The position numbers and the translations under genes were made by a program. This document shows positions 34,858 to 57,657 of a stretch of DNA of 64,000 nucleotides, in pieces. How positions within the stretch are numbered: the stretch's first letter is position 1; each line of letters begins with the position of its first letter. The notes below the pieces were generated by a model that did no database searches, was not told the DNA's origin, and worked only from the letters and a program-made list of their open reading frames with translations. Source of the stretch: Amphiscolops sp. MND2022 (lineage: Eukaryota); assembly GCA_964187785.1 (NCBI GenBank), contig OZ076409.1, positions 26,290,001-26,354,000 on the forward strand, read 5' to 3'.

Positions 34858-35167
34858 TGTTCTATTTTCGTTTGATAAAAAAGGTAGCGTTTTTCTAAAG
34901 TCCTCAATTCATCAAATGATCGTTATAGCAAACATTATCTCAATAAATCTTTATAAATCTAATTTAACATACATATTGTTTGTAAATTTGTAAAAATGTA
35001 TAAACATAAACTCTAATCATTATTGCTCAATTTGGGATCAGTTTGATTGACAGCTTGTGAACCGAATAATTCGGAATCGGTATTACAAAGAAAAACAAAG
35101 GTCCTAAAAAACTCCAAAAATAGGTTTTTCCATCGATTCTCTTTTGGCAAGACATTCTGCAAAAAAA

Positions 35168-35551
35168 AACAAGACGGGAACGTCTAAAGTCGGCGCTATA
35201 TCTAAGGCTCAAAAAGCGCAAAAGACTTTTTTTTGAAGGGGGACTCTTTTGAGACATTAAAAATTTTTCGAAAAAAAGTCGCACAATGCCGAAAAAATAT
35301 CGGAAGGGGGGACCCTTCAGTCTCGTCCGGTTTTGTAGGTTACGTTAAAATAGTAAAAAACGAGAGGGGGGACCCTGTTGCACTAATTTCCGCTGACCGG
35401 ACTTGGCCTTTTGGTAGTAGTTTTAGTAGTTTCGATTGTAAGAAAAGTGGCCCAATCAGAGTGAGATTGTAGTCTGACGAAAAAATAAAGAAATAAAAAA
35501 ACTAGCCACTGTAATAGTCGGGCACTTTTCATTAGGAAAGCGCCGACTAAT
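35168..35551 (-). mobile_element. HINE-like family A copy
   Basis: Reverse-complement match to 56259-56767 and to the termini of 2049-2642. Confidence 0.65.
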
Positions 35552-36757
35552 AATTGAATACACTGCATTTTCATCATTATATACGTTATGACTTAAACAG
35601 TTTTAATATTTTTCGATTTAGAAAGGCAAAAAATTGGGAACGGTTAACACCGTCCTTCAATTGGTTAGGCTGCATTTTCGATTGTTATATACGCTTCCCA
35701 GATGGAGCATTGTCATGGTTCAACTTGAAAAGATACAAAAGTTCGAAAATGATTAGATGCAAGCATCAGTCTTCCTGCTGAGTTCTTATAAAAATCTGAT
35801 AGAACGTCAAAACATCGGAATAAGCGCACTCTGCATCGAAAGACACTTTTTTGAATACGGTATTATCTTAAATCAATTAGAAAAGTTTCTGAAGTTCTAC
35901 ACAACATTTTCGAAAAATTTAGTGAAGGAAGAAATTTTTCAATGAGGTGTGGGGATGCTTTTTCCGACTAACCAATGCTACTTGACGTGAAAACATTTTA
36001 AAAAACTTTCGTGAAAACTCGTTGCGAAAAGTTTTCGCCTAGTGCTATAATACAACAAAAAGATCAGCTTTAGGCTGGAAAATTGAGTTGTCTGACTGGA
36101 AACATCACAAAACAAAAGTTTGCTCAAGCTAAACCAGTTGTGCTGTTGACATCCCAGTCCCACGCGTACCTTTTAGGTCTCAGCAGTCTTTGATTGAAGT
36201 TGTAGGCTAATGGCTCTCGCAAACTTCCTCGGCGTTTCAGGATAAGATGAATTACCGGTGTCTCATCAACAATCCTTCTCGTTTGTCGAAATTTACTGTT
36301 TTTTTGAGGCACCCGTTATTCTGGGATCTGGAAGTGTTGGATTTGTTTTCTTTCAAATTTTCGTTCATGCCGATAAGAGCAAGTGTTTGTTATGCGCGAA
36401 CCGAACACCAATCAGCGACTGTTTTGTGCACCGGTCGAACAGCGTCATTTTGTTGTTTGGTTTTAGGGTCGCTCATGCCGTTTTGATTACCAATTTCTCT
36501 TTATACACTTCGTCGGCGTTGACAGGTGCGATTGAATTACTACAAAGATATTTTTTCAGTGGCAAAATCTCGCCTGCAACAATATTGTTCACAACCTATT
36601 TTTGTTGATTAAGCGTTTATTTATCGACGATATAAATGTCCGTTGCAATATGTCAACTAAATAATTGTTAAAAGGGGCGAAATAAGAGCTTTTCAGCCCG
36701 ACACAGAAAATTTCGAACTGAGAACCAGCGTTACTACCTAAAGAAATTTATTTTTAT

Positions 36758-38470
36758 TCATTGGTAAAGTAACGAGTCACATAGAAAATCCGAAAGAAAA
36801 AAGTGAGTACTTAAAACTTCAGAATTGTTTGAGATAAAATTGCTAGCAATGTTTGTTGTGAAACTTTTAACTGGCGATTCTGATGAAGTTTTCAGGTTAG
36901 TGGGTTTTAGGTCAAGAGTAAGTAACCAATTGTATGATCTGACGATGGTGTTCTTTAAGGAACGCGCTTGGAGGATAGTTCGAGAGTAGGGTGTTACTAA
37001 AAGACCTTTTGCTTTTCCCCGAAAGTTCCGATCGGACGGAATGTAATTACAGGATACAAAATTGAAAGGTGACTTGTCTCTATGCTGCTTGAACAACTCC
37101 CGTACAAGCACAAAAATATGTCTTTTGGAATAGAATGTTGTATCAATTTGGTCACCAAGGCATTTGCAGTGTTTTTTAGTTGGCGCATTTTAGAAGAAAA
37201 TGAGCCCGACTATTACAGTGGCTAGTTTTTTTTTCGTCAGATAACAGAAGGTATGCGTAGTGGACACTTTTTACAGAACAGAACTACTAAACTAAAGTAC
37301 TGGATCGGCAAACGGGGAGCGTATTTAAGATAGTGCAAAGGGTCCCCCCTTTCAGTTACTCCATTTTTATCGTAAGATACAAAACCTGACGAGACAATAG
37401 GGTCCCCCTTTGAGTTTTTTTCGGCACTGTGCGACTTTTTTTCGAAATTTTTTTTTGTCTCCAAAGGGTCCCCCCTTCAATTTTTTGCTGTTTTGCGACA
37501 AAATGGATGTTGGAAAATTCCAAAGGCCCCCCCCCTTTCAGTTTTTTTCGGCACTGTGAGATTTTTTTTTAAAACAAAAACTTTTCATCCCTTCAATTTT
37601 TTGATGTTTTGCGACTGAATGGATGGTGAAAAACCCCAAAAGGTCCCTCCTTTCAGTTTTTTTCGGCACTGTGAGATTTTTTTCCGAAAATTATTTTCTC
37701 TCCAAAGGGTCCCCCTTCAATTTCTTTGATATTTTACAACACATTGGGTGTTTAAAAATCCCAAAGGGTCCCCCCTTTCAGTTTTTCGGCATTGTGAGAT
37801 TTTTTCGAAAATTTGTTTTTTCTCCAAAGGGTTCCTCCTTCAACTGCAACAAAAATGTTGACAATTGCGGAAGTGTCCCTCTTTTAGCGCGCCGGGGGCT
37901 CGCGCTAGCGGGGCCCGGCGCGCCACTCAGTCCATTTTTTTGGTTTTTCGAAAAAAAATTCGATAAAATTTCGAAAAAAAAATTTAAAGTTTTTTTTCAA
38001 AAAAAGTCATTTGCGCTTTTTGAGCCTTAGATATGGCGCCGACTTTAGACGTTCTTGTCTTGTTCAATAGTAAATCCGTGTCGAGGGCAGGATTTTGGAA
38101 AGGTTGTACACTGCAAAAGCGACAGTTTCGCAATTTTCTACACAAACGATTAGTTTGTTTGTGACAAGTCACTCTCTAACGCGTTCAATTTTGCTAGTAG
38201 TTTCATGTGATTTATTTCGACCACGGATATATACAATTGTATCATCTGCGAATAATGTTATTTTACAGCGAACACAATTCTTGGCGTCAATATTGTAGAT
38301 GAGAAAGAAAAACGGGCCCAGGACAGAGCCCTTTGGAACTCCACGAGTTTTTGAGTGCATTTGAGCGCTTGTATTGTTCGATTTTTCATCAAAGAAATGT
38401 TGTCTATCTTTTGAATGATTTCTAATGAAATTGAGTGCTGGTCCTCTAAACCCATATCTGTAACTCTTCT
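36758..38470 (-). pseudogene. Decayed LINE reverse transcriptase fragment split by a HINE-like insertion
   Basis: GVPKGSVLGPFFFLIY and LFADDT motifs in ORF 38169-38360, and an ORF2 C-terminal-like remnant at 36758-37188. Confidence 0.65.
37172..38063 (+). mobile_element. HINE-like family A copy
   Basis: Same 5' hairpin, 3' GCGCCGACTTTAGACGTTCTTGTCTTGTT end, and expanded internal AAGGGTCCCCC repeats. Confidence 0.65.
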
Positions 38471-38775
38471 CTACAAAAATTGAAGGATCGCTAACAGTAA
38501 ATTTTGCGACGTGCGGCAGTCCGTAGCTGTTGAAAATGGCCGTGTTATCAGTATGTTGGAATAATATTTTCCTCTAGTAAGCCGCTTGATTTTCTCCCTA
38601 TGAATGTGTTTGTCTTTGGTCACAGTCTATTCTATTGTTATTAGGTTAAAATCGTTTTAATTCCAACAGTACTTAGCTGAAATTAGACAACCATGTCCTC
38701 TCCCAAACTGTACTCTTCGGCAAGAACATGTCGGTCCTGGAACGGACTGTGACAACATGCTCTATAAAAATTACG

Positions 38776-40692
38776 TGTCGCAGGCTGCCGCCTGTGACGG
38801 TACAAAGATCACAACGACGGTGGAAGGACAAGAAATAGCTGTCGGCACTCTACCCACCTACTAGAGAAAAGTAATTGAAACTTTTACATTCCAGTATTTT
38901 ATACGTTGTGCTTATTGGAATTGTTCGTTTTGTTTTGTACGTATAAGTATTAGTATTAGTCTGTTAAAGTTAACAATTGGAAAGTTAAGATGAGATGTCT
39001 GCAAAATGCAATTGGCAATGTAAACAATTGGAGTAATCAATACAGCTAGGCAGCATAAAGGAAACGAGTTCAAGTGAACGTAACTTCAATGCCAGAAGCG
39101 TCACTTGATCTCGTTATGCTAGCTAATCAAATTCATCCATTTGGCGGTGCTACCATTGTATTCATCCATTGGCCAAATTAGGCCTAGTGACGTAATTTCA
39201 CTTTCATTGTTAAGTACATTAGTCTAATGGCCGGTTTCGGCCGTCTAGTGCCTGTAAATGATAAGTTGCCTAATATGCTTCTACTCAATTGGTAACTGAG
39301 CGATTGTGCTTTCATGTTAACCAGATGCCTCATTTGTGCAGTTTTATGCTTTATTCCAGTAAGTGGCCACTTGCCAAAATATTGTTTTCTGTTGATAAAG
39401 CCAATTGGATAAAGGCCGATTTCGGCTCTTTTGAAATCAGCCATCCAAATGTCAAATTAGAGTGATATACATATATGCTCATGCTTTAATGTCAAGTGTG
39501 GCTGTATTTACACTAGAAATTATTAGTGATCTCTCTTTAAAGTGATCAGTGCAATTGATAATAGTTTGCGGTGTAATATTGAGTGGTAGTCTCGTAGACT
39601 AATTTGGCTAACCTACCCAATTGATATGTACCAATCATGACCGTATTGGGCATGATAAACATGTGCAGGAGTACACGGCTATAGTAGTTAGCCACCAAGA
39701 TAGTCCAACCGTGCAGACACGTGCCGACTCGGGACAGTTGAAATTCTTCAAATATTTGTTATGTAACACCCTGTTTGATGTATCTCATACCTTTCAAATG
39801 TTTAGTTGTGTAAAGAATGAAGGAATTTGAAAGGCCACATGACCTCCCCAACCACATTTCGGCGGCACTTAGATGTTCGTACGAAAATACTTATCAGGTG
39901 CTTTCGGAATGTTGTTGTCACATTTTTCGAATAATTATGTCTTGAATACCCGCCTGAGGGAGTATATATAGGAGCTACTCTTTTAGACGGACACAATTTT
40001 TTGTTTCGCTCCTTACATTCAGTTAATACCACAACTTTGTTGTAAACCTTCTCCAAACACTGTTTCTTGGTGTTAAATAGTTTATTATTTGACCAGGTTC
40101 GTTTCAATGCCTACAACTAGAAAGCAGAAAAAGGCAAGGAAGTCGAGAGGACTTGAAATGTTATCAGATATTGAGAACTTAGATATCATGCTGGGTGAAA
40201 ACCATTTTAACACGAGGGAAAGGGAAGGCAGCCCAAACAGTAATATGCTTAGGAGATCTAGGAGCTTTGTGAGCAATGAGTCCATAAATGAAGAAGAGGA
40301 CTTAGAAAGAAATCAGAGAAATGTTAACTCTGGAACAAAAGCCGAATGCGACCAAAATTCAGTTACAGGCAATTCTAGTGCCGAGATAAACAAGTTGTCA
40401 AGTGAACTAAATTCTCGTATTTCACGGGAAATGGACGAGATGATGAATTCTGTGAGTGTTCAGATACAAAGAGCCATAAGTAATGCAAAAAGCACTCAAG
40501 TACATCCCCAGATTCAAAACGCTATTATGGCCGGATCAGTACACGGGACCAGAAAGGGATGGGACGCCCCGTCCGAGAGACTGGAACTAATTCCCGAAGT
40601 TCAGCGAAACTTAAACGCAAAGAGCAGCCTGAGAAATGAACAAGATGAAAATCAGCTGAACAATGATTAACCTGATCTAAATGTTCATGACA
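38776..40692 (+). repeat. 5' LTR (1917 bp)
   Basis: TGTCGC...ATGACA, highly similar to 53204-55134. TATA-like TATATATAGG at ~39963. Confidence 0.95.
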
Positions 40693-41819
40693 TGGTGACA
40701 GGAGACAACGAATCTCCAAATCCAGTTCCTGAGTTTCTCACAGGACGTATCCCATCAAGAACTCATCTCAATCAGTCCTACGAGGACATCAACTTTGACA
40801 CGACGATCCCAGCGCACGAGAGAATTGCTACAGCTGCCGATCCTGATCCCATTACTAGATTGGCCGACCTCTTGACTACGATGCAGAATAGACCAACAGC
40901 ACAACAACTCACAATACGCCCAGTCAACTCCAACACTATGACTTTTGACGGCAAGAGTGAGAAATTTGAGCTGTTCGAAAATCTCTTCCACACTATGATC
41001 AAGATGCAGCCAGAAATGACCGAGCAAATGAAAATTAATCATTTTCATTCATTGTTGAGGAAAAATGCTCTCCAGACGTTCAGAAATATCAATTCGACAA
41101 ACCGACAAACCCTCGAAGACGTACTGGTCATTTTCAGACGAAAATATATCAAACCCGAATCACAGGCGACTGCCAAACATAAATGGCACCGTCTGGTCTT
41201 TGACCCTAACACGATGAAACTGCCTGATTTCCTTGAAGAATTGAATCAAGGGGCAGAGAAAGCGTTTGGAGACCATGCGCAGAAAATGATTGACAGCTTG
41301 CTTTACGCAAAACTACCACCAAAACTGAAGCGGTCCGTCAATATGGCCAGATTAGAAAATGGCTCATACGATGAGATAGTTGCTCATTTGGAGAGAGAAT
41401 TGGAGCTTAACGCTCTCGAGGAGTCAGACGACCTACCAATGGCAACAATGACTTCCTCATCTGCCAAGCCCAAAACTCCTCTGTCCACTGGGCAAATGTC
41501 AGACATCACTTGCAATTACTGCAAGGAAAAGGGCCACATGGTCAAGGACTGTGAGAAACTAAAAAAGAAAAAAGAGAAAGATGCCCAACAAGGCAAGTCG
41601 ACTCACAAGAAAACATATCCGGAGTGTGGCACTTGTGGCAAAAAGAACCACCCAGAAGAAAGATGTTGGCAAGGTGCCGGTGCACATCTTAAACCCAAAC
41701 GCACTAGACCCGAGGACTCAAATGATAATAAGCCTAATTCAAAGGCTCAGAAACCTCAGACCAAGCCGACATCATCAAGTTCCCAATCCTCATCTTCTAA
41801 TGATGAGTCAAAAAATTAA
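40107..41819 (+). CDS. gag: Gag (about 570 aa; one premature stop in this copy)
   Basis: ORFs 40089-40670 and 40692-41819 are in frame. TAA at 40668 is TAC at 55110 in the other LTR. Capsid-like FDGKSEKFELFE region and two CCHC knuckles (CNYCKEKGHMVKDC, CGTCGKKNHPEERC). Confidence 0.85.
40693..40704 (+). promoter_or_regulatory. Putative primer-binding site
   Basis: TGGTGACAGGAG directly after the LTR CA. It resembles the complement of a tRNA-Leu 3' end (TGGTGTCAGGAG); tRNA identity is uncertain. Confidence 0.55.
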
Positions 41820-44800
41820 CTTCGCCACGACTCCAATATAACGAACTAGTATCTGTCCGCCAATACATCAGGTCGGACCCTCCAACGAAAGCCTTTCTCC
41901 AATACAATCAGCAGTTGATGGGTTATCCCTCTGTTGTCTGGCAGCAACAGATGGACAAAGCTATCATCATTACTTACAACAATACCCATTTATTCCAAAA
42001 ACCAATTCCTGCTTGGGACCCTGACTATACAACCACCTTCAATACCCGGTTCAGGCCCATTCCCCTGATCGATGATTACAATCCAACATACATCGATCCA
42101 GACTATGGCAGAGATCCCTATTGGGACAACGAGCTTTACAACCAAGATTTACTGCAATTTCAATATGTCCTAGACGATATTGACCATTATAACAGAACAG
42201 TCCACGAGAACCCTCCAATTACCCATAACAAGAAAACACGAGCACTAATCGAAAACTGGCAAATGAATGATGGTACAAACCATCCAGTGTTCCCAAACCC
42301 ATTGGGGACCGAGAATCCTGAAAACAGTGGTGAATCCACCCCACAATCATTATTAGACGAAAAACAGTTCCAAAATGTACTCATCACCAGAGATGGTGAA
42401 CCAGACTGTATACCCCTGTCAACCAAAATCAACCTCAAATGCAAGAAACGCATGCTTTATTTCCCAATGGACTTTGGGGAATTGACCATTGATGGATTAA
42501 TAGACACTGGGGCACTGTCCAGTGCAATCCCTGAAATGGACCTCCGGAAAATCCGCCTCCTATCTCCACAATCGGTTATCCGAGAAGGTCCGCCTCCGAA
42601 CTTCCAAATCATGGTCGCTAATGGGCAACTGGAAACTCCTAAGAGTACCATAGAGCTCAAATTCGAAGTTGGTGACATTGAGTTCCATGAAATCTTCTTA
42701 GTAATGGAACATTTGACATGACCGATCATTGGACTGATGTTCCTTCAAAGAAATCACACAGTTTTGGACATGAGACAAGGAATCTTGAATTTCCCGTTCT
42801 TTTCAATGCAGCTAAAAACAGCGGATGATAAATATTCAAATGTACAAGAACCAATTCTCAACCCCACCGAAATAACCATTCCGCCAAACGATAGAGTCCT
42901 AATTAGGACCAATTCCCTACTTAACCCCGAGAATGCTGTCACCGGGATACTACAACCGAGCGACCATCTCCATGAAGAAGGCGACATCACATTTTGCCCA
43001 GCTCTAGTCACTCTGAATGACGGCAATATAATGATACCAGTGAACAACTTCACAGACCACCCTTACAAACTTAAAAAGGGACTTCACATTGCCAATTTCT
43101 CCATCATGACGCCAGAACAGATGAAGTATGTCAAACCGGTAGACCCGGCATCGACCTGGCATCTTTTGCAAAACAACCAAGAGCAGGCAGCCCACTATGT
43201 CAGCAATCTTATCAAGACGAATAAAAATTTTCAAAATTCTGAAAATTACTGGTTCCCAACCCAAGAAAACCCTGGAAACCCTGAGGAACACACACCTATC
43301 CAGAAACGAATCCTCCGTGAGTTACAGGCCTTACAGGACCTGGAGACACTTGACCCCACCAAAGATAACGAATCTCGTGCGAAATTTCTAGAAAACTTCG
43401 ACTGGAAAGATTCCACCCTTACTCCTGAAGAAAAGGAGAAATTTGAAGAATTACTAGTGGAATTCCATGATATATTTGCACGACATCGATTCGATATAGG
43501 CATGAACGAGGAATTCAAGGTGAAATTGACACCTACGGACGATTCCCCAGCCTATAGCCAGAGCCTCCCAGCCCCTATCAACCTGAAGGAGGACATCTTA
43601 GTCGAATTGGCCATGTTACACAAATATGGCATAATCACCACCCTACCATTTTCGAAATATGCGAGTCCAATATTTGCACAAAAGAAACCTAACGGAAAAC
43701 TCAGACTCTTGGTTGACTTGAAAAAAATCAACAACCTCATCTCGGATGATTATATCAATAATAATCACCCCGTTAGTACACTAGTCGATGCCGCCCAACA
43801 CTTGGCAGGCAAAAAACTGTTCTGTAAATTAGACTGTTCGCAGCATACCACTGCCTGCCGATGGCTGACCAGCGTTCGATCGAAATGTTGGCTTTCAATT
43901 TTGCCAGTCGCACATTTGCATACAGACGTTTGGCACAAGGCCTTAGCCGGGCACTGTCCGCATTCTCGAGTTTCATGAAGGAATACCTCGACACAGTCAT
44001 TAAAGCGGATCAGTGTGCCCAGTATTTGGTTGATATCGGCATCGCGGCCAATGATGCTGACCACCTCATAGCGAACCTGAGAGCTACGTTCAAATGCATT
44101 CAGGAAGCAGGCCTTAAGTTAACAATGCACAAATTTCACTTCGGTGCAAAAGAAATTGATTTTCTCGGACGAACTATTACCCCACAAGGCATCAAACCCC
44201 AGAAACAGAATGTGCAAAATTTTCTGGAAAAGACCAAATTCCCGAAGTCGAAAAAGGCTTTACAACGCTATTTGGGATTCCTAAAATACTCCAGGAATTA
44301 TGTCCCAAGACTCTCCGAACGCCTTGCTCCATTCTACAAGATGCTCAAAAGTGACGGAAAGGTCCTAGTATCGAAAGAATTAGTCCAGCAATTCGAAAAA
44401 ATCAATAGAGCACTAGACAAATGTTGCGACTTGGCCCTACAGCAACCCATTCCGAACAAGCAAATTGCACTAATGACTGATGCAAGTTTTGGTGCAGCCG
44501 GGTACGCGGTCCTAATTGAAGACGACCCAAGCCAGAAATTTACATCACTCAGGAGATCGTATGCACCGGTCGCATATGGATCAAAAGCTTTCACCCCAGC
44601 ACAGATCAAGATGTCAATTTATGCCAAGGAATTCCTTGCAATTTATTTTGCATTCAAAGAATTTGGCCATATCTTCTGGGGTTCGCCCAAACCAGTCATT
44701 ATCTTAACTGACAACAAAGATGTAACACGATTTTTCCAAACGAAAATAATACCCCCAGCACTGTGGAACGCATGTGATTATGCTATTCAGTTCAATTTTG

Positions 44801-46960
44801 TCATAGAGCACATCCCGGGGGCACAAAATACAGCTGCTGACTATTTGTCCCGATTGGAAGCAGATCCGAAGGACAAATTAGTGATGAAAATTCGCGAAGA
44901 TGTACAAACACTACCGATCGAAATCAATGTCCAATCCGCAGGGGTGTCACAAGAAGAACAAATCTTCTACACCAATGACGACAATGAGACAGAAGAACAG
45001 TATTGGGCAAGAAAAGAAGCAATCAGGAAAAATCCAGCAACTGATGAGCCCACTGTTACAATACAAACTCTGTCAACAAATCTGGTCAAGCAACACCCCG
45101 ATATACAAGTCCGATTGAGGAAGACGAACCAGATCATTATCGAGCAATCCAAAGATGCGGTACTACAGCAATTGAAAGCGAAACTGCTTCATGAAGAGTA
45201 TTCAGAAAATCTACTGCATCAGGATGCCCGATACAGGCACTATGCAAACAATCTGGAACGAATTGTACTAAAGGACGAAATCCTGACAAGGCAATACTTT
45301 GACGAAACAGGGAATGTTAAATACCATCAAATTCTGCTCCCGCAACACTTACTCCAGGAACTGCTTCAGTCTCTTCACGGGACAGCGCATAGACATCCTG
45401 GCATTTCAAAAGTGTTGCAGGAAATTCGACAAAGGTATTACTACCCTAGCATGGCTAAACACGTCAAAAATGGGTAGAGGGGTGTGAGGAATGCGCAAGA
45501 GACAAGCGAGTCCCCAACGCAACAATTACGCCTGAATTACTCAACTTGCCCGAATAAACCTTGGACCTGAAGACGCCATGCAAATCGACCTATTGCCGAA
45601 TCTTCCCCCAAGTGGAGGGTTTGAAAATGTCCTAACAACAATTGACGTATTTCCCAGATATTTGTTCGCCTTTCCTCTTACGGACGCATCAGCGATCAAC
45701 GTAGCAAAAGCGCTCATTGACATTATGACCAAGCATGCATACTTACCGTCAACACTTATCACTGACAAGGGTACTGCATTTACTTCCACGATCATTGCGG
45801 AAATTTAGCAAATTTTGGGCATAACACTCAAATGTGCAACAACAAAACACCCACAAACAATTGGGAAATTGGAGCGGACCCATGCCTCACTGAAAACAAA
45901 CCTCAAAACGGCATGTGGAGAATACCGCCGACAATGGCACAAATACTTGCCACTAGCAGTACTAAATCACAATACCAGTTACCATGCCAGCATCGGTTGT
46001 GAGCCGACGAGAGTATTTCATGGAAGAATTCCATATAATATCTTGGATCACAAGCTTGGAAATAATCCAAACGAGCAAGTCAACCCAACAACCGAATTCG
46101 CTGAAGAAATCCAAAAACGGACAAACATCTTGATCGACAAGACGAAGCACAATATCATGCAGTCGTACATCAAGTACAAAGAATACTATGACCGTAAGGC
46201 AAAAGCCGCCCCATTAATAGAGAATGAATACTGTTTTGTCTTACAACCGAAAGCAGATCATCAAGGATCAAAAATTCCATTCCGAGATTATCGTTGGGTT
46301 GGACCATTTATAGTCCAACAGGCTTTACCTAACGAAAATTACATTGTTAGACGAATAAAAACAAACAAGACTCAAATCTTGCATCGGATTCGCCTTAAAA
46401 AGTTTGTCCCCAATCAACCGCTTGAGGACAATTTCCGGGAACAGCGGTTACAGCCAGACGAGGAAATTATCATTCCGCAAGATGATTTATACGTCATAAC
46501 GTGGGAAACCGACTTTGGAGGGCAGCTAGTTACACGAGGCAACGAACCTATTCCGACTAGCATGCCGAACGGCGAACGGCCGAATGCGGCAGAACCGATT
46601 CAAAATGACGTAGACGAGAAAGAAGCGGGTCAAATAATCACGCGAGAAGAATTAAACAACGACAATGCGGCGCACAGCCAGAACGACTGCTTAAGTGATG
46701 ACGTCACTAAAAGAAATGAAGCTACCGAAGTGACAGGAAATGAAGAATCTGACTGGCCGAATCCGGCCGTTCCCCCAAGAAACCAAGAAAAATCTTCGCC
46801 GAATACGGCAGATAGACCGGAAAACGATGAAATTTTTTCAGAAAGAAATTCGATGAATGAAAACGATACACAAAATTCTCCAAACAGGTGGGATGATATA
46901 ATCTCAGGCCTAACCCCAACCCAAACTACTCAGAAGACTTCAGATATTAGAAAAGACTAA
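41810..46960 (+). pseudogene. pol: Pol polyprotein (protease, RT, RNase H, integrase), disrupted
   Basis: LIDTGA protease; RT (ASPIF, LRLLVD, KLD; catalytic motif reads YLVD); RNase H (TDAS, KEFLAI, TDNK); integrase (H..HPG..C..C, QIDL, TDKG, ERTH). Stops at 42719, 45555 and 45806; frameshifts near 43850 and 45470. Confidence 0.92.
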
Positions 46961-47186: not shown

Positions 47187-50100
47187 TTAAACATTAGACG
47201 ATCCGGACACAGACTCGCTGAGGACGGATGAGGAACGGGAACGAGCAGCTCTCTTCTCTGTACGTTTGCGCTTACTGCTACTAGGCACCTTCAATGCCGC
47301 ATCATCCAGGACTGAGGACGTATCGTTGACTTCCAATTGAGCAGACCCATCTGAAGACTCCGAAACTGCGGAACGATAGGAAGACAGAAGCGACTTGTAT
47401 ATTTTTGTCCGCCCAAAGACATCAACTGTCTCCCAAGGGTAATAATTGGGCGAAAAAGCAGACGACCCAAAAGAGGCAGAAAGAAGGGAGAAACTAGTGA
47501 GATTAGATTCGCTGGTACACCTCGCTACAGAATCAGGAACACCGATCAAATAACTCTGGATGGGGAGAACGACGTCAATGAAGCGACCCCGCTGTCCAGA
47601 AGTATCAACCCTCCCCACTTTCACAACTGGAAATTCAGGACTCACAGTGGTAACGCACAGGCAACACAACTTGAATAAATGGAGGAGATGCTCTCGTGTC
47701 TGCAGGAAATCAAGGTTTATCAAAAAGTCTATGAGGTCTTTAGCCTCTTCTGTAACTTCGAGTCCGCCAGAGTATTTAGCGCGAAGGTAGTCAATCAGTT
47801 CGACATATTGGTCTCTGCATGCCGCTTCGACTGAGGCACTGATCCAAGAGCGGCGCTGGAACGAACTGAAGAGGATGTCAAAATGTCGGAGTGCTACCTC
47901 GGTAGGACGTTTGACCATGATATGCGGGTCAAAAGCAGCCAGCCCCTTGATGATGTTAGAACTGAGCCCAGCCTGTCGTTGTACTTCACTAAGCAAATGC
48001 TTAAGATAGGACATGGCATCCTGGACGAACTCGGCCTTAATAGTCTCAGCAGTCTTTTGGACTAGGGCCCGATCCGACCGTTTTCCAGAATGGACTCCTT
48101 CAGCCTTTCGCTTGCAAGCGGAGGTAACTTTGTTGGTCATGTTGAGCCGGACGAGAAATTCCCCAGCCGCCATGAGGGTTCCGTCACCTACTTGGAATCC
48201 CAGGAGGAGGAACCAGGCACTTGGTAATTGGACTGAATCGCTAGTGAAACATCTGAAGCACAGCTGGTAGATGAATTTGGAAGCCTCCCCACAGAGCAAA
48301 AATGATGCATCACGCCAGTGTTGAGCGTTGATAGTGAAGCTAGTGTTATCTAGGAAAAAGAAATTGGTACAACTTAAAGCGGAGGACTCGACCAAAGTTG
48401 ATCGAAGCAAACTAACACTCACTAACGATCCGGCAAAAGAGTTCCAGCTTGACGAGAATGAAGTCGTCACAAATCAGTCCCCACTCAAAACTTTGCACCT
48501 GTAATAAGACTTGGTATTATTACAATAAAGCTGAAAAGGGGCGGGGGATTATCCCCGTCTATATACCTCAAGCAACTCCTAATCAACATATATTTGAAGG
48601 AAATAAAGATTTGGTCACCCACCCGAATACGAACTCCTTGACCTTGTTGCTGTGGCACGTGCGTCGTCAAGTAACTCGTCACTGGTTTCCATTCCTCAAT
48701 CAGCTCCTGACAAAGGGTCGGTAAAGTGGAAAGCTCCAATTTGCAGCTGGAAATCGCCTGGGAAAGAAGATCACAACTTAGAATCGGGCGACTAAGAAGA
48801 TTCTCCCTACTTAGTCAACATCTCACTAACTATGTCTGTAACCCTAGAAAGATAAACGTTGTTTACCTGGGCTAGCTCAGGGCTTCGCGGATACCAATCT
48901 TCGGAGTGTGACCCGCCAAGGGAGATGACTAGACCGCGCAAGACCGAGAAAAAGTCTATGTGACCAAAGACGCTGTAACTGGTTTTATGCATCATCTTGG
49001 ACAGGTTCAGTTGGTCGAAGCGGAAGCAACTTTGCACAGCCCGGGAAAAGAGGGAGGAATAATCAACTGTGCGAAGAAGGTCAACGGAGCTTCCAGAACA
49101 TGCCACTATGTCGGCGTTGGTGGAGACAACTGACAAGAGTCGGGACAATGACCCCAACTCACCGGTCAGATCTGTAGCAGGCAGCTGACTCCTGCAGATG
49201 AGGACTCTGTGAAGATTTTGGACTTCCCAATAGCGTACTGTCATGTACCGATTAGGGCCCCTGTCCTCAAACTCGATAGCGAAGCACTGCTCAGCTGTAA
49301 TTTGCTCTGCCAAGTGACTCATAGTGCATTTGAAGATGTGTTGGAAAATAGCCTGAAACGGACAAGTAAATTTAGCAACCGGGTTAATTATATGGACGTA
49401 CTTGGTTGACCTATAAAAAGGAGTTTACCGTGATGCGTTCTTCCGACCAATCGAAATCGCACAAGCTGGCTTGGTAGTCAGTGTGGGAACTGACTCTCGA
49501 CCACAGATTCTTCAACAATGAGAAGTCTCCTTGGGATTGCAGGAAGTCTCCTACGATGGACAGCTGTAACTTCGCTCGCGAATCAGGAGTGACTATGGCA
49601 GTAGGCCGCCCCTGCATGAAGTCATCATAGAAGGGAAACCTCTCTCCTACGTCCACAAGATCAGTATGAATGAACTTCGGCAATTCCTTGGCAAGTTCGA
49701 TTGCGGTCAACACCTTCCCATTTTGGCCTCGAACCCGGTGCCGTACCTTCCCGCTGACAGGGTCCACACTCTTGAGGTGTTCGTACCTCCATCGCTGGTC
49801 ACGCCGCAAGTGCCTCTCTGAACGGTGGTGGCGCAAGATTTCAAAAGCACTCTTTGACCGAATCGAGAAGTTCTTCTTGCACATATGGCACCAAACCATA
49901 TGCGGGTTATGGACAGGATCAGCGGGCCCAGAGATAAAGGATCGGGTCCACCCGATCTTGGCGAAGAACTCTTCTCGCATTGGGACCCCTCGACTGGCAA
50001 GTCTTCTCGATCTGTTCGGGAGTTTGTGTCTAGCGGGACTTTTCGCCTTGGTCCCTCGTGCTTGCTCTTGGAGTTCCAAAAGAGTAGTATCCTGACTGCT

Positions 50101-51659
50101 GGGGTCAGTGGTCTCGCCTATGACCGTAGTACATGAATGAGCAACTCTGTCCTTTCCTTGGGACGATGGGGCAAGTTGGGAGTCACCACCTAAGGTCGCT
50201 GAAATTAAGGCCATTTCAGTAGCGCTGTCTGATTCCCCTTCAAAAGAAGAACCCCCTGTGTCACCTGCACTGGTAGGAGTTAGGGCTCTAGAGTCTGCAC
50301 TTGAATCGTATTCAGCCTCCGAAGAACTCTGGTCACCTTGGTCCCACCGACCTGGAGTCTCTGCCCTGTTCTTGATGAGGAAGTGAGATATCTTGGACGG
50401 CGCGACGGTGGGTTTACCCTTAACGGCATCAACGACCATTTTCTCCATTGTAGAGTAGGACAATCGAAGGGTTTCATCACTTAAGACTCGCAACAAGTGG
50501 TACATCTGTGCCTCTGGAAACGCCACAGTGGGGTGACCTAATGGAAGGGTGAATGGTTTGGCGTCAGCAAAGTACGTCTTTAAGATGACTCGGCTTCGAC
50601 CAGTCAATTGTGGGAGTTGGTCGTCAGGCCCTCGGGAACTGGAAGGCTTGCCAGGATCCATGTTGTCGTGACCTGGTCCTGACTCGTCGCCGGCTTCAGT
50701 CCCGGATTCAGATCCAAAGGGGACAGAGCTATAAAGTGCTGGCCCATCTTCATGACCCGTGTCGTCACTGGCCTTCTCACTCTCAGTCGGGTCATCTGTC
50801 AAGAAGTGGACTTTCGGGTTGTCTTTCGGCAGCCCTGGGAAATCGCAAGTGGAGGACGTGTTATCTCCTTCATTCCGTTCTTGTAATCCTGTAATGCCCC
50901 CTGACTCTAGTAAGGGAACTGGGACGAGAACTGGCAGGTCAGACTGTGATCCGATAACGACGTCAAGGGCAGTCTCAAGGTGTGACAGGTTGGTTGACGG
51001 CTCAACTGTCTCGGCATTGAGTGTCGGAGTACTTGACCTCGGGAAGGGCAAATTTAAGTTGTTTTCTGGAGCTCGCTGAACAGAGGCAGTGTCGAGGGCC
51101 GTGCCAACTGTGCTACTTGTCTCAACAACGAGACTAGCCTGTGCCTTTTCCAGTCGCTGGACTATCTCATCAGCATAAGAAGTAACTTCTGTGTTATTAT
51201 CCGGGCTATAAAGGAGAGCCACGTCCTCGGCCTGAACGCGAGAAAATGAAGAAACCAGTGGAAGAAAAGGTGGAGGAGACGGAACAGAGGGTTGGACTGG
51301 GTCAGAACTAGAGGAGTGACTGGCTACTTGAGTTAGTACAGCAGAGAGATTCGAGACAGCGTTGGCTGAGGCTTGTAACTCATCTTCACTCTGGTTTGCT
51401 AAACAGAAAGAAATGAAATTCGGCGGTGTGCTTCCTTGGAAAAAATCCATCGCTTTAGAAATCTTCCGGAAGTGTTTGAAAATTTGAATAGACATGTTAT
51501 CACGTGTCCTCTGATGGAAACAGGAAGCAGTTTACGAACAAAGTTAACCTTGATCACGTTAATTAGTTCAAAATACGATTACTCAAACCAACCTGTGTTG
51601 ACAATCTCTCGGTTTTGAAGTCCTTGCTCCTCTGGAAAGAGTCCCTGTTGGTCCGACAT
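47187..51659 (-). CDS. Spliced antisense cargo gene, ~1298 aa, BED-like zinc finger / hAT-transposase-like protein
   Basis: Exons 51659-51593, 51398-49429, 49352-48867, 48757-48623, 48498-48423 and 48349-47187 join through GT-AG introns into 3897 nt with no stop. WCHMCKKNFSI...EILRHHRSERH zinc finger. Exon 1 and the exact exon-5 donor are less certain. Confidence 0.78.
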
Positions 51660-52505
51660 GATCAGGTTTAGTGGCTGGATTCGGGCAAAAGAGGAAGAAG
51701 AAATGGAGGTCTTGCGTAGAGGCAATGCCGGCAACAGAACTACGGATGAATCCCAGTACCTGCAGAGATGGGAACGTAAACTGAGGAAAATGATGAAGAG
51801 AGTAAAGAACAAATAGTAGATGAATTGAATAGCGTAACAATTAAAAGGGTGAAAGTTGGAGTTCGTGGCTGAAGGAAATTATCAGACTAATATTATATGG
51901 CTATTTACATATTTAAGTTGTACATGGAGTCTGCCAGCGAAATGTACAGAGATCTTTTCATTATTTACAGCTTGTTTGATCAGTGGCCATTTACGGCCGT
52001 TTGCCCTATTCCGTTTTGCCGTTCTGTTCAGTTACCTTAGTTACCTTAGTTAGAATTTCCGCCTTTTTGGAATTATTTAGGTTTATTATTTTTGCCATTT
52101 TATTACTCATTTTCCAATTTATCAAGGCTCGATTCTGATTGGCCAAGACCATTTTGAAAACTTTGTGACGCAAGTCGTAATTGCTCTCAGGCGAGCCGTT
52201 AATTACCCACTTGAGAGGAAAATATTTGATATCAACAACTCGAGTGTTGTTCACACCCTCTTTGATGATGACTTAGATGAGGGGTATACATCAAATAACC
52301 AGAGGTCGCCAACTTGTTGAGGAATTCCATTCAGAATAGTTTACGACAAATCAGGATAATCTACCTAGGATTTAACCGCCAAATCGGAAACTTCGGGAAA
52401 AAACCCGAATTGGTCAGTTTCTTGAGTTGGTGAATTCATTCCACTTTGAAATCTTGATCAAGCTAGTCAGTCTTCCTACTCAACAAAATTGCGAAAAAGA
52501 TAATT

Positions 52506-53292
52506 ATGCAGAGATTTTATCTGACGAAAAAACTCTTCACTTTTGAAGAACAGAGCTCTGAAGAATCAACGGACTCAGTAATTTATATCTCCAGTGATAG
52601 TGAAGATGAAGTATCAAGCACTTGGGATTCAGATTGGTCCATGGACACCGAAGCCATTATTGATAGAATAGAGCGAGAAGTTAGGGCGACCCCAATTCCC
52701 ATTACTGGCCGTGCATGACAGTAGAAGATTTGGACGACGAGCCAGAAGCAGGACCTAGTGGCGCTCAACCAATCCCACCTCGCACCCCCAATTTGGGATT
52801 TGAGTATTTCAACAAGGAAATGTGCCTAGCCCCATCCAAGAAACAGAGGAATCCAAGGGTCGAGCTTTGCACTACTGTCCTACCAGTTCTAGAATCTCCG
52901 CTGTCCCCTCCTGCTCATGAAAGAGGGCCAAGTCTGGACACCCCCCTCGTTCAATCAACTGCAGGGGGCTTTTATGCTTCATATCACTTGCAGAACACGA
53001 GACCGTACCAAAATGAAAGTGAGAATTTGCATACTGGGTGTATGGTTTGCGGCAAATCAACGGACCAAATAATGCAGGAAAAATCAATTGGTACATGCAG
53101 AGATCGACGCCGGATAGTGAACCCGCCTATATCACTGCTCTTTGCCGTGAAGCCTACTCAAATGGTCTTAACGCCGGCAATTTGCTCTTCTTAACACCTG
53201 CTGTGTCGCAGGCTCCCGCCTGTGACGGTACAAAGATCACAACGACGGCGGAAGGACAAGAAATAGCTGTCGGCACTCTATCCACCTACTAG
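52506..53292 (+). pseudogene. Sense-strand accessory ORF of the Gypsy element (acidic, SIM-like motif, CxxC), two frameshifts
   Basis: Overlapping ORFs 52506-52718, 52715-53194 and 53038-53292 chain into one plausible ~260-aa protein. The last 29 codons lie in the 3' LTR. Confidence 0.55.
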
Positions 53293-55134
53293 AGAAAAGT
53301 AATTGAAACTTAAAAACTTTTACATTCCAGTATTTTATACGTTGTGCTTATTGGAATTGTTCGTTTTGTTTTGTACGTATAAGTATTAGTATTAGTCTGT
53401 TAAAGTTAACAATTAGAAAGTTAAGATGAGATGCCTGCAATATGCAATTGGCAATGTAAACAATTGGAGTAATCAATACAGCTAGGCAGCATAAAGGAAA
53501 CGAGTTCAAGTGAACGTAACTTCAATGCCGGAAGCGTCACTTGAGCTCGTTATGCTAGCCAATCAAAAACATCCATTTGGCGGTGCTACCATTGTATTCA
53601 TCAATTGGCCAAATTAGGCCTAGTGACGTAATTTCACTTTCATTGTTAAGTACATTAGTCTAATGGCCGGTTTCGGCCGTCTAGTGCCTGTAAATGATAA
53701 GTTGCCTAATATGCTTCTACTCAATTGGTAATTGAGCGATTGTTCTTTCATGTTAACCAGATGCCTCATTTGTGCAGTTTTATGCTTTATTCCAGTAAGT
53801 GGCCGAATAAGGCCACTTGCCAAAATATTGTTTTCTGTTGATAAAGCCAATTGGATAAAGGCCGATTTCGGCTCTTTTGAACTCAGCCATCCAAATGTCA
53901 AATTAGAGTGATATACATATATGCTCATGCTTTAATGTCAAGTGTCGCTGTATTTACACTAGAAATTATTAGTGATCTCTCTCTAAAGTGATCAGTGCAA
54001 TTGATAATAGTTTGCGGTGTAATATTGAGTGGTAGTCTCGTAGACTAATTTGGCTAACCAACCCAATTGATATGTACCAATCATGACCGTATTGGGCATG
54101 ATAAACATGTGCAGGAGTACACGGCTATAGTAGTTAGCCACCAAGATAGTCCATCCGTGCAGACACGTGCCGACTCGGGACAGTTGAAATTCTTCAAAGA
54201 TTTGTTATGTAACACCCTGTTTGATGTATCTCATACCTTTCAAATGTTTACTTGTGTAGTGAATGAAGGAATTTGAAAGGCCACATGACCTCCCCAACCG
54301 CATTTCGGCGGCACTTAGATGTTCGTACGAAAATACTTATCAGGTGCTTTTGGAATGTTGTTGTCACATTTTTCGAATAATTATGTCTTGAATACCCGCC
54401 TGAGGGAGAATATATAGGAGCTACTCTTTTAGACGGACACAATTTTTTGTTGCGCTCCTTACATTCAGTTAATACCACAACTTTGTTGTAAACCTTCTCC
54501 AAACACTATTTCTTGGTGTAAAATAATAATTTATTATTTGACCAGGTTCGTTTCAATGCCTACAACTAGAAAGCAGAAAAAGGCAAGGAAGTCGAGAGGA
54601 CTTGAAATGTTATCAGATATTGAGAACTTAGATATCATGCTTGGTGAAAACCATTTTAACACAAGGGAAAGGGAAGGCAGCCTAAACAGTAATATGCTTA
54701 GGAGATCTAGGAGCTTTGTCAGCAATGAGTCCATAAATGAAGAAGAGGACTTAGAAAGAAATCAGAGAAATGTTAACTCTGGAACAAATGCGACCAAAAT
54801 TCAGTTACAGACAATTCTATTGCCGAGATAAACAAGTTGTCAAGTGAACTAAATTCTCGTACTTCACGGGAAATGGACGAGATGATGAATTCTGTGAGTG
54901 TTCAGATACAAAGAGCCATAAGTAATGCAATAAGCACTCAAGTACTTCCCCAGATTCAAAACGCTATTATGGCCGGATCAGGACACGGGACCAGAAAGGG
55001 ATGGGACGCCCCGTCCGAGAGACCGGAACTAATTCCCGAAGTTCAGCGAAACTTAAACGCAAAGAACAGCCTGAGAAATGAACAAGATGAAAATCAGCTG
55101 AACAATGATTACCCTGATCTAAATGTTCATGACA
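53204..55134 (+). repeat. 3' LTR (1931 bp)
   Basis: Copy of 38776-40692, followed by the TSD TTACG. Confidence 0.95.
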
Positions 55135-56198
55135 TTACGTAATATTGCTCGCTATTATACAGAGAATCACAACCGACCGCTCATCAATGCATTTGATTTG
55201 CGCTTAAGTTGAACGTATTTTAATGATTTTCTGTATACAAAACTCAAAGAATTGTTTTAGGTTTTTTCCATACAACTAATTTAGCACGTTCATGGCATGT
55301 TTTACGAAACTGATGAAAATCTGCTTGAACGGCTGTCCTTCTTGTCAGTTTTTTCTTCTCTTTTGTTAATTCTTTGCAGCTTTATTTTATCCAAGTTCTT
55401 TACCTAGCAACAGCTGTGAAAGTATGATCATCGTTTGTGGTCCTTTCTCGACTCAGTTGGGCATCATCCTTCTATTGGCTGCCTACTGTAAGATTCTCGA
55501 TAAAACGTTTTTTTTTGTTTTCTGATGAGCGAACCCAAGCACGTTTTTCTTACAATTTCTGCAATTAGCTACTGAATGAATGTGGAAAGCTGGAAATTAC
55601 TTCCTACTAGGCCTAGACGTTAACCAGAATTCCTCAACGTGGTGAGTAAGTTTAAATTGTTCTTGAAACCTGTTCAGATTTAAATTTTTGAAATTTTCCG
55701 TTGAGGAGAACCATTTTCGAGTCTATAGATGACATCTTTGGTTATTTGTTATGGTAATGAGGAGCTGAAGAGAGTTTTTCAATAACTGGACTCAAGCTAT
55801 AAGAAAAATTTCGGTATTTTCAGCCCGTTAAGACTTTTCACGAATTCATTTTTTTTCAACACGGGATCTCTCTGATAGGTTTTTCTGCACTTTGCGACTT
55901 CATGTGAATTTTGATTGTTTTAAAAATTGTATAAAATGTTTATTTTAGGTTTCAAGTTAGGGGATCATCAATTTTTTGGCCTCCGATTCAAACTGCACCG
56001 AAGTGTGTCGAAAGGCCTTCACCAGTTCTGTTAATTTCTGCTAGAAATTAACAGAACTGGTGTAGTACACTTTACATTTCACTAGCTTGTCGGTTTTGAC
56101 TTTTGCTTGTTTTCAGTTAGAATATCCCCTTTTTGATGTCTAAAGCGTCCTATTGCTTTTTTAAGCAACTGGTCGAGCATTGACCGAAAAAACAATCA

Positions 56199-57657
56199 TT
56201 TTTAGTCGGCGCTTTTCTTTAGAAAAGAGTCGACTATAGTCATGGCTTTTCGTCAGTGTTTTTTAGTCGGCGCTTTTCTAGGGAAAAGTGCCCGACACTT
56301 ACAGTGGCTAGTTTTTTTTTCTTTTTTTTCGTCAGACTACAATCTCACTCTGATTGGGCCACTTTTCTTACAATCGAAACTACTAAAACTACTACCATAA
56401 GGCCAAGTCCGGTCAGCGGAAATTAGTGCAAAAGGGTCCCCCTTTCATTTTTTACTATTTTAACGTAACCTACAAAACCGGACGAGACTAAAGGGTCCCC
56501 CCTTTCGATTTTTTTCGGCATTGTGCGACTTTTTTTCGAATATTTTTTAATGTCTCAAAAGAGTCCCCCTTTCGAGTTTTTTTGATTTTTTGCAACAGAA
56601 TATATGTTAATAAAGCCCAAAGGGTCCCCCCTTTTACATTTTTCGGCACTATGCGACATTTTCTGAAAGAAAAAAAATCAAAAATTTCAAGTTTTTTTTT
56701 CAAAAAATGTCTTTTGCGCTTTTTGAGCCTTAGATATAGCGCCGACTTTAGACGTTCCCGTCTTGTTTTAAGACCACCTGAACTGACCAAAATAGTTCTA
56801 CCAAAAGTTTCACAAAATTTTCAGAAGACGCCAAAATGTACCTGTTGGCCCAAGGAACTGAACTAAAAAGGTTTCCCGCGTAACATACAATACCATACGA
56901 GACCAAAGTGTCCATTTTTTCGGCACTGTGCGACGTTTTTCAAAAAAACTTTTTTCACCACGAAAAGCCCCTCCTTCAATTTTTTTGGAGTTTTGCAACA
57001 GAATGGATGTTGAAAAATCCCAAAGGGTCCTCCCTTTCAGTTTTTTCGGCATTGTGAGACTTTTATTCAATTTTTTTTCATAAAAGTAGTCCCAATTCAC
57101 CAATACTTGGAAATTTTGAAGTCCTTTTGCTATTTTTGAGCCTTGGATATGGCGCCGACTTGGGCCGTTCCCGGCTTGTTTTCAATAGTTATTTCCTATG
57201 AGTCTGATCTAATTTTTAAGTTCTAAGGTTTGAATTCAAGGTATACATTTTGAGGCTTCGCGATGTATTTACGCACATTCGAAGTAAATTGAGTTTTACT
57301 ACGGAGGAGGTGGAGGTTCAAAAATTTTGCGCTAAATCCGAATTTTAGACGTTACGTCCGAAATAAATTGCGTTTTACGACGGAGGTTTAAATCTCATCA
57401 GTTTCGATGTTTCGTTCCAAAATCGAAAGAAAAGCACACACACTATATCTGAATTTTTGACCGTATATCCGAAGTAATTGATTTTTCTGGTGAGAATAAA
57501 AGTAAAACATTCCTTTCAGGCCCCAAAGGGTCTTACTTTTGTTTTTGGTACTGTGAAATTGAGAATTCATTCAAAAGAGAACCTTTGACGCTTTGAAGTA
57601 CTTTTGTTCTTTTTGAGCCTCAAAAAGGCGCCGACTTATACAGTTTCCGGCTCGTTC
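56199..57657 (+). mobile_element. Cluster of nested/tandem HINE-like family A copies
   Basis: 5' hairpin ends at ~56199 and ~56259; 3' GGCGCCGACTT-hairpin-TT ends at ~56767, ~57180 and ~57657. Confidence 0.65.

What the first reader, a model, noticed from the sequence alone, without database searches (positions are those of the whole stretch)
47600..49900. The cargo protein looks like a captured, catalytically degenerate hAT transposase
Seen, in order: a BED-like finger (WCHMC-x15-HHRSERH); CFAIEFEDRGPNRYMTVRYW, resembling the hAT FSIxxD...VRY first catalytic strand; a helical LIEEWKPVTSYL...FILVKLELFCRIV region; LAAFDP; and HLLHLFKLCCLCVTTVS, resembling the hAT dimerisation domain lead-in. 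The DGA, CxxH and ERxFS catalytic motifs are not recognisable, and no hAT TIRs or 8-bp TSD flank the gene. The N-terminal ~500 aa are S/P/E/D-rich and probably disordered. Inference: a class II transposase co-opted by a class I element as a DNA-binding regulator, for example an anti-silencing or targeting factor analogous to plant VANC proteins.
Basis: inference. Interest (0 to 1): 0.8.

Follow-up and report, generated by a model that had tools for sequence, protein, structure and literature searches.

The report
Spliced transposase-like gene inside a retrotransposon
A large family of Gypsy retrotransposons in this genome carries, on the opposite strand, a conserved gene with five predicted introns that is swapped between elements as a cassette, and its protein likely descends from a DNA-transposon enzyme that lost its cutting residues and would now act as a regulator for the element.

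Summary
The motifs are real. They belong to a six-exon, 1300-codon antisense gene model (51659-47187) between integrase and the 3' LTR of a complete 16.4-kb Gypsy element. It is no nested transposon: no hAT TIRs or 8-bp TSD were found. It sat in the same place in 40 of 40 cargo-picked and 20 of 20 RT-picked copies. GT-AG sites are conserved (94 of 95 each), one intron is precisely absent in one subfamily, and dN/dS is 0.03-0.08. Copies with identical RT/IN carry cargo alleles with saturated dS, so the gene is exchanged as a module.

The hAT origin is likely (about 0.6) but unproven. For it: motif order, language-model neighbours (27 of 30 hAT-dimerisation clusters) and a weak collinearity test. 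Against it: Pfam, HMM, profile alignment and fold searches on low-confidence fragment models gave nothing significant. On the motif alignment the DDE positions read E, S and variable; W319 is kept, R318 is not. Function is untested. My best reading is a nuclear DNA-binding accessory regulator. VANC-like LTR specificity is weakened by free cargo/LTR reassortment. No RNA evidence was available.

The parts
38771..38775 (+). 5-bp target-site duplication TTACG, left copy
38776..40692 (+). 5' LTR (TG...CA); holds the start of gag from about 40108
   Evidence: 43 mismatches in 1910 aligned bases to the 3' LTR
40693..40705 (+). Primer-binding-site-like TGGTGACAGGAGA directly behind the 5' LTR
   Evidence: same in 12 of 12 further copies printed; tRNA not identified
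40077..41819 (+). gag (DUF1759-like, CCHC knuckle); in-frame stop at 40668-40670 in this copy
41807..46960 (+). pol: protease, dUTPase-like, RT, RNase H, integrase; interrupted by stops and frameshifts in this copy
47187..48349 (-). Cargo exon 6 (386 aa + stop): helical region, LAAFDP, HLLHLFKLCCLC lead-in, no ERxFS, basic C-terminal tail (KRKRTEKR)
48417..48498 (-). Cargo exon 5 (82 nt)
48623..48757 (-). Cargo exon 4 (135 nt); intron 4 (48622-48499) is precisely absent in one subfamily
48867..49352 (-). Cargo exon 3 (486 nt): predicted RNase-H-like strand order; E29 at the D180 position, S86 at the D248 position, W153 at the W319 position (motif alignment)
49429..51398 (-). Cargo exon 2 (1970 nt): S/P/E/D-rich region with a conserved island, then a C-x2-C-x16-H-x5-H finger (49893-49810) and helical region
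51593..51659 (-). Cargo exon 1 (ATG, 67 nt); intron 1 is 51592-51399
51660..52500 (.). Non-coding stretch between two divergent accessory genes, with conserved blocks (CCAAT box, TAATATTAG, GTAATTAAC); inferred internal promoter
52467..53292 (+). Second accessory gene, sense, 251-321 codons stop-to-stop in ten other copies, with a SIM-like motif and a CxxC; runs into the 3' LTR; frameshifted in this copy
53204..55134 (+). 3' LTR (TG...CA); no purine tract is visible in front of it
55135..55139 (+). 5-bp target-site duplication TTACG, right copy

Best explanation
This Gypsy family carries a fixed antisense accessory gene with five predicted introns, whose protein is likely a catalytically dead hAT-transposase derivative and is predicted to work as a nuclear DNA-binding regulator that keeps the element transcribed. 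Shown: position, fixation in the sampled copies, conserved splice sites, purifying selection, cassette exchange, and no D-D-E at the motif-aligned positions. Inferred: (1) an internal promoter at 51.7-52.5 kb drives the cargo antisense and the small SIM-bearing gene sense; (2) the introns survive retrotransposition because they lie on the strand opposite the genomic RNA; (3) the protein enters the nucleus through its basic tail, binds DNA through the C2H2 finger on a hAT-type scaffold, cannot cut, and recruits or displaces chromatin factors through its long acidic S/P-rich arm; (4) alleles are exchanged by template switching between co-packaged RNAs, and old alleles persist because the partner or target varies.
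For: Fixed: 40 of 40 cargo-anchored loci and 20 of 20 RT-anchored loci. Splice sites: 94 of 95 GT and 94 of 95 AG in 19 copies; same exon 3 and 4 sizes in a lineage about 31% identical in exon 6; intron 4 precisely absent in 10 of 10 copies of one subfamily. dN/dS 0.03-0.08 in the finger and hAT-like exons, 0.14-0.19 in the N-terminal arm, against 0.04-0.17 for RT/RNase H. Swap: L025 and L045 are 87-100% identical up to about 3500 and 98-100% from 9000, but mostly 40-75% across the cargo; L025, L045 and L129 have zero RT and IN distance and three different cargo alleles. hAT leads: 27 of 30 Atlas neighbours of exon 6 are PF05699 clusters, score 0.91; four of seven segments align collinearly to a PRKRIR/ZMYM1-type hAT profile; 4 of 13 windows on the diagonal against 6 of 78 shuffled; exon 3 model has the order helix-b1-b2-b3-aA-b4-aB-b5. 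Residues: E at D180 in 58 of 61 copies, S at D248 in 52 of 52 scored, W kept in 57 of 61 with D/E/G instead of R before it, E572 region variable (E in 21 of 110 rows at the best column). Precedent: transposases are sequence-specific transcriptional activators, and derivatives recurrently lose DDE (bioRxiv 10.64898/2026.08.24.746577, abstract and passages).
Against: No Pfam hAT, BED or DUF4371 match in any piece or relative. Cargo HMM against ORFs of 40 loci picked by PF05699 hits: best E 0.2. HHalign of the whole cargo against the PRKRIR-type profile: E 0.4, same as controls; no segment beat its shuffles. My profile aligner gave z 1.1-2.1 and 0.2-1.8 against z 11-20 for two true hAT groups, and about 0 against Ac-type hATs. 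The Atlas hit shares only 144-145 features (under 170), and 4-10% of shuffled proteins reach 0.9. Both fragment models are low-confidence (pLDDT 54). Cargo and LTR types reassort (L045/L043: cargo 88-94%, LTR 55-76%), and no 8-mer arrays exceed shuffles in 8 of 9 elements, against VANC-like family-specific targeting. No binding or expression data.
Confidence: 0.4

Rival explanations
1. Same fixed accessory gene, but not hAT-derived: an orphan zinc-finger protein, a captured host gene or a derivative of another DDE family. The motif likeness is partly chance.
For: All significance-based tests failed. The 150 best of 658 representatives come without names, and the 38 of the set scanned have no hAT Pfam match. 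The Atlas puts exon 3 near DNA_pol_A_exo1 clusters at only 0.85.
Against: Finger, b1 acidic residue with VRY, SG at the DGA position, W, FDP and L..LF.L.. occur in hAT order and at hAT spacing; 27 of 30 Atlas neighbours are PF05699 clusters.
Confidence: 0.25
2. A dead transposase derivative used for integration: it tethers the pre-integration complex to chosen chromatin, carries it into the nucleus or shields cDNA ends, rather than regulating transcription.
For: Selection as strong as on pol; W319 equivalent kept; this role is proposed for plant antisense ORFs (PMC7264820); free reassortment with LTRs fits a host target.
Against: Identical integrases run with different cargo alleles, which argues against a tight integrase-cargo interface. 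The five TSDs read and the window's share no evident motif.
Confidence: 0.15
3. A host-directed effector in a conflict: the cargo and the small SIM protein act on host silencing machinery or host genes in trans (decoy, or poison-antidote pair) without binding the element's own DNA.
For: Old, diverse alleles swapped as a cassette; cargo diverges faster than pol (exon 6 mean 66% against RT 94% within the near group); SIM-like motif in 56 of 61 copies of the partner gene.
Against: No sign of positive selection in pairwise dN/dS. The swap in L025/L045 leaves the small gene behind, so the two are not a locked pair.
Confidence: 0.13
4. An active nuclease with a non-canonical site built from the invariant acidic residues (E27, E29, D97, D133 of exon 3).
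For: These residues are invariant in 24 of 24 aligned copies.
Against: The D248 position is S and the E572 region is variable; no TIRs to act on.
Confidence: 0.05
5. An ordinary hAT transposon nested by chance and decaying in one copy.
For: The genome holds many true hAT elements (150 scored PF05699 matches).
Against: Same place and orientation in 60 of 60 further copies; purifying selection; cargo intact while this copy's gag/pol is broken; no TIR or TSD.
Confidence: 0.02

Closest known systems
Antisense additional ORFs between pol and 3' LTR (maize Grande gene23, rice RIRE2, Silene Retand TRP28/PF04195, Botrytis Boty)
   Same: Same position and orientation, present in most copies, conserved like pol, own promoter and nuclear regulatory role proposed (PMC7264820, main text read; PMC11963269, passages).
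   Different: Those ORFs have unknown origin and no similarity to other transposons according to PMC7264820; 'intron' does not occur in PMC11963269. This gene has five predicted introns, 1300 codons, a hAT-like domain order and cassette exchange.
hAT transposases (Hermes, Ac; PRKRIR/ZMYM1-like group)
   Same: C2H2 finger, then likely RNase-H strands, W319 equivalent, long helical region and a dimerisation lead-in, in the same order and at similar spacing.
   Different: D180, D248, R318 and E572, named essential in PMC6027215 (passage), read E, S, D/E and variable; no TIRs or TSD; about 500-aa acidic arm; no significant profile match.
Transposon-encoded regulators: Spm TnpA, VANDAL VANC, AtMu1 transposase
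   Same: Accessory protein coded by the element, predicted DNA binder; TnpA arose from a transposase (bioRxiv 10.64898/2026.08.24.746577).
   Different: All serve DNA transposons ('retrotransposon' and 'LTR' occur 0 times in that preprint's main text). VANC is related to MAIN, not to a transposase (PMC13547354, passage), and its targets often form tandem repeats (PMC5735166, abstract), which were not seen here.
Host-domesticated transposases (FAR1/FHY3, MUSTANG; ZBED, ZMYM1, THAP12/PRKRIR names partly recalled)
   Same: Loss of DDE with a kept scaffold under purifying selection.
   Different: Here the owner is a retrotransposon with hundreds of copies, not a host locus.
Animal Gypsy elements with extra domains (planarian Burro, rotifer LTR elements)
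   Same: dUTPase-like domain between protease and RT, accessory ORFs (PMC6431247, passages).
   Different: The passages seen name MATH/TRAF, SUMO-like, BCL2, env and midasin-like domains, no transposase-like antisense gene.

Membership tests
hAT transposon | Terminal inverted repeats of 8 bp or more flanking the transposase | tested here: not met
   0 of 63 enclosing 11-bp inverted pairs start with the hAT consensus; none of the 25 longest repeats encloses the gene
hAT transposon | Target-site duplication (8 bp) around the element | tested here: not met
   0 of 63 pairs with a flank match of 6/8 or more
hAT transposase | Catalytic D180, D248, E572 | tested here: not met
   On the motif alignment: E in 58 of 61, S in 52 of 52 scored, no ERxF in 20 of 20 rows; E572 columns variable. 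Depends on an alignment that is not statistically significant.
hAT transposase | R318-W319 | tested here: inconclusive
   W in 57 of 61 copies, preceded by D (44), E (12) or G (1), never R; placement by motif only
hAT transposase | [quoted passage not shown] | tested here: inconclusive
   C-x2-C-x16-H-x5-H in 57 of 61; no zf-BED match, only sub-threshold zinc-finger hits
hAT transposase | C-terminal dimerisation region (PF05699) | tested here: inconclusive
   No HMM match; 27 of 30 Atlas neighbours carry it, score 0.91, 144-145 shared features
hAT transposase | RNase-H-like catalytic fold with a long helical insertion | tested here: inconclusive
   Strand/helix order fits, but pLDDT is 54 and fragment searches list no RNase-H catalytic domain or Hermes; the full spliced protein could not be folded
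Ty3/Gypsy LTR retrotransposon (carrier) | Two LTRs with TG...CA and a short TSD | tested here: met
   38776-40692 and 53204-55134, TSD TTACG
Ty3/Gypsy LTR retrotransposon (carrier) | gag, then PR-RT-RNase H-IN order | tested here: met
Ty3/Gypsy LTR retrotransposon (carrier) | PBS behind the 5' LTR and polypurine tract before the 3' LTR | tested here: inconclusive
   TGG-start PBS-like site in 12 of 12 printed copies; no purine tract directly before the 3' LTR
Antisense additional ORF (aORF-3R) | Between pol and 3' LTR, antisense, in most copies, conserved like pol | tested here: met
Antisense additional ORF (aORF-3R) | Transcribed from its own promoter | not testable with these tools
   No RNA run was listed; conserved non-coding blocks only
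VANC-like anti-silencing factor | Family-specific tandem target motifs in non-coding DNA | tested here: inconclusive
   Top 8-mer counts 3-5 against shuffle maxima 4-5 in 8 of 9 elements, 7 in one; dispersed or degenerate motifs would be missed
VANC-like anti-silencing factor | Sequence-specific binding and loss of silencing marks | not testable with these tools
   Needs ChIP, EMSA and chromatin data

The most novel reading that the evidence does not exclude
An LTR retrotransposon has domesticated a whole DNA-transposon transposase, introns included, as its own transcription or anti-silencing factor, pairs it with a SUMO-binding partner gene on a divergent promoter, and trades ancient alleles of it between subfamilies as an arms-race cassette: transposase domestication by another transposon class rather than by the host.
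Probability: 0.3. Interest if true: 0.85.

Novelty: new variant of a known kind. Interest (0 to 1): 0.66.

Why it matters
The origin of antisense accessory genes of LTR elements is stated as unknown (PMC7264820). This family gives a case with a plausible donor class, a full intron-exon anatomy and hundreds of young copies. If the hAT origin and regulatory role hold, transposase-to-regulator conversion also happens across transposon classes. Natural pairs with identical gag/pol and different cargo alleles make the effect of the cargo on copy number, chromatin and insertion sites testable from existing copies. The precise intron presence/absence inside a retroelement also bears on how introns are gained or lost.

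Full report
Setting. The window lies in a 1.07-Gb genome, G000; the host was not identified. The finding sits inside a complete LTR element: LTRs at 38776-40692 and 53204-55134, both TG...CA, 43 mismatches in 1910 aligned bases, with TTACG duplicated on both sides. The sense strand codes gag, protease, a dUTPase-like region, RT, RNase H and integrase in Gypsy order. In this copy gag and pol carry stops and frameshifts.

Gene model. Aligning copies showed conserved exons and divergent GT-AG introns. Six exons (51659-51593, 51398-49429, 49352-48867, 48757-48623, 48498-48417, 48349-47187) give 3903 nt with compatible phases and no internal stop. In 19 copies, 94 of 95 donors are GT and 94 of 95 acceptors AG; two of the 21 loci then held (L011, L023, internal duplications) were left out. 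In ten copies of a subfamily about 50% identical in exon 6, introns 2, 3 and 5 are kept (30 of 30 GT, 29 of 30 AG) and intron 4 is precisely absent. In a far lineage (exon 6 about 31% identical, RT 82%) exon 3 is still 486 nt between AG and GT in 7 of 9 copies and exon 4 is 135 nt. This is strong comparative support, but no RNA run was listed, so splicing itself is inferred.

Fixation and selection. Three own-genome searches each returned 117-120 scored matches out of about 7000 candidates; these are not copy numbers. All 40 hand-picked cargo-anchored loci have the gene antisense directly behind integrase (L035 keeps only the integrase end). All 20 loci hand-picked from the 150 RT hits carry the cargo and the small sense gene. 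Picks favoured open frames and the plus strand. Pairwise dN/dS is 0.03-0.08 for the finger region and exons 3, 4 and 6, 0.14-0.19 for the N-terminal arm, and 0.04-0.17 for RT/RNase H (nine copies with an open exon 2; printed pairs only; dS saturated between subfamilies).

Cassette exchange. L025 and L045 have dN 0 in gag, RT and IN but dN 0.13-0.27 and saturated dS in the cargo. Their identity falls at about 200 bases before the first donor and recovers about 250 bases after the stop. L045 and L043 show the reverse: cargo 88-94%, LTR 55-76%. Within the near group, RT and IN identities correlate (Spearman 0.78), exon 3 and exon 6 correlate (0.66), RT and exon 6 hardly (0.16); near and far lineages separate in all four trees. 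So cargo and carrier are long co-inherited but reassort among close subfamilies.

Is it a hAT transposase? For: the Atlas gave 27 of 30 neighbours with PF05699 for exon 6 (score 0.91, 144-145 shared features, a level that 4-10% of shuffles reach). Against a profile of 117 PRKRIR/ZMYM1-type hAT proteins, four of seven segments fell in collinear places: finger on 8-42, exon 3 core on 165-262 (EFE on ADE, VRYW on VRYV), exons 4-5 on 323-398, exon 6 on 484-606; the other three did not, and none beat its shuffles. With fixed windows, 4 of 13 lay in the diagonal band against 6 of 78 shuffled; windows overlap, so this is weak. The exon 3 model shows the RNase-H order of strands and helices. Against: no Pfam match, no HMM match either way, whole-profile HHalign E 0.4, my aligner z at most 2.1 while two true hAT groups score 11-20. 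Both models have pLDDT 54 and their fold searches are uninformative. I put hAT ancestry at about 0.6.

Catalytic positions. PMC6027215 (passage) names D180, D248, R318, W319 and E572 as essential. On the motif alignment these read E (58 of 61), S (52 of 52 scored, 9 not found), D/E/G, W (57 of 61) and variable. The far lineage has CSGA, closest to DGA. The C at the CxxH position is kept in the near lineage only, and H is replaced by F. It therefore fails membership as an active hAT transposase and as a hAT element (no TIR or TSD), which does not exclude a hAT-type scaffold.

Mechanism. Shown: a maintained protein-coding cassette with zinc ligands (57 of 61), an S/P/E/D-rich arm (36%) and a basic tail. 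Inferred: nuclear, DNA-binding, non-cutting regulator made from an internal divergent promoter with conserved blocks. The preprint 10.64898/2026.08.24.746577 (abstract and passages; supplements not seen) shows that a transposase activates cognate copies and that regulators arise by DDE loss, which makes this the most economical reading. The VANC model specifically is weakened by reassortment with LTRs and the lack of motif arrays. Short words shared across lineages exist (CTGCCGCCTG in 12 of 13 LTRs, though it also codes for the small gene; TAATATTAG and GTAATTAAC in 11 of 14 promoters) and are candidate sites.

Distribution. 237 database proteins matched at E 0.01 or better; the 120 listed are all ENA-only, unnamed and without Pfam. 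The full HMMER search found 658 representatives at E 0.001 or better, 150 listed; 36 database proteins aligned reach down to 25% identity and keep LF.L.CLC without ERxFS. Their genomic context could not be read.

Literature. Eight searches listed no report of a hAT-derived, intron-bearing accessory gene in an LTR retrotransposon; the library lacks most subscription papers and Repbase-type records, so this is not proof of novelty. Seen: PMC7264820 main text (parts 1-2 of 3); passages of PMC11963269, PMC6431247, PMC13547354, PMC6027215; abstract and section list of PMC5735166. No supplements were read. The SIM likeness, the RNase-H clan membership of DNA_pol_A_exo1 and the names ZBED and ZNF862 are recalled.

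Verdict. A real, previously undescribed (as far as searched) variant of the antisense accessory gene of LTR elements. Its anatomy, selection and exchange are shown; hAT origin is likely; function is inferred. Interest 0.66.

Noticed in passing
window 52467-53292 (+); L025:2023-2985:-: A second accessory gene in the family, with SVIYISS/SIIYISS plus acidic residues (48 of 61 copies) or DSDIEVI (8 of 61), resembling a SUMO-interacting motif (likeness recalled), a CxxC, and a C-terminus coded inside the 3' LTR. No Pfam match above threshold.
   Followed up: partly
window 40108-40692: gag begins about 580 bases inside the LTR and reads through the PBS, so both LTRs carry the gag N-terminus.
   Followed up: no
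window 53175-53203: No polypurine tract before the 3' LTR; a pyrimidine-rich coding stretch ending in GCAG is conserved instead, so plus-strand priming is unexplained.
   Followed up: partly
L091-L109, cargo exon 4/5: Intron 4 is precisely absent in 10 of 10 copies of one subfamily and present in both the near and the far lineage.
   Followed up: yes
window about 50670-50420 (-): Conserved island (RVILKTYF...HPTV...LLRVLSDE) inside the low-complexity arm, kept at 35-38% identity in the far lineage; possibly a small folded interaction domain.
   Followed up: no
window 42722-43978: dUTPase-like domain between protease and RT (PF00692, E 0.021, sub-threshold).
   Followed up: no
L017, L021, L031, L037: Tandem or internally duplicated elements, including arrays sharing an LTR and repeats of the cargo-pol block.
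   Followed up: no
window 10003-10638 and 17476-18110: A second direct-repeat pair (636 bp, 98.6%) around minus-skewed ORFs at 11921-14650, probably another LTR element.
   Followed up: no
window 2040-2640, 35166-35560, 37170-38060, 56250-57180: Dispersed repeat family with about 120-bp subunits in both orientations; also tandem arrays at 480-734 (17 bp) and 30380-30756 (29 bp).
   Followed up: no
P0199, P0138: Cargo relatives with no close match in G000 (best 27-31% identity for P0199; none at E 1e-80 for P0138), suggesting further lineages in other genomes.
   Followed up: partly
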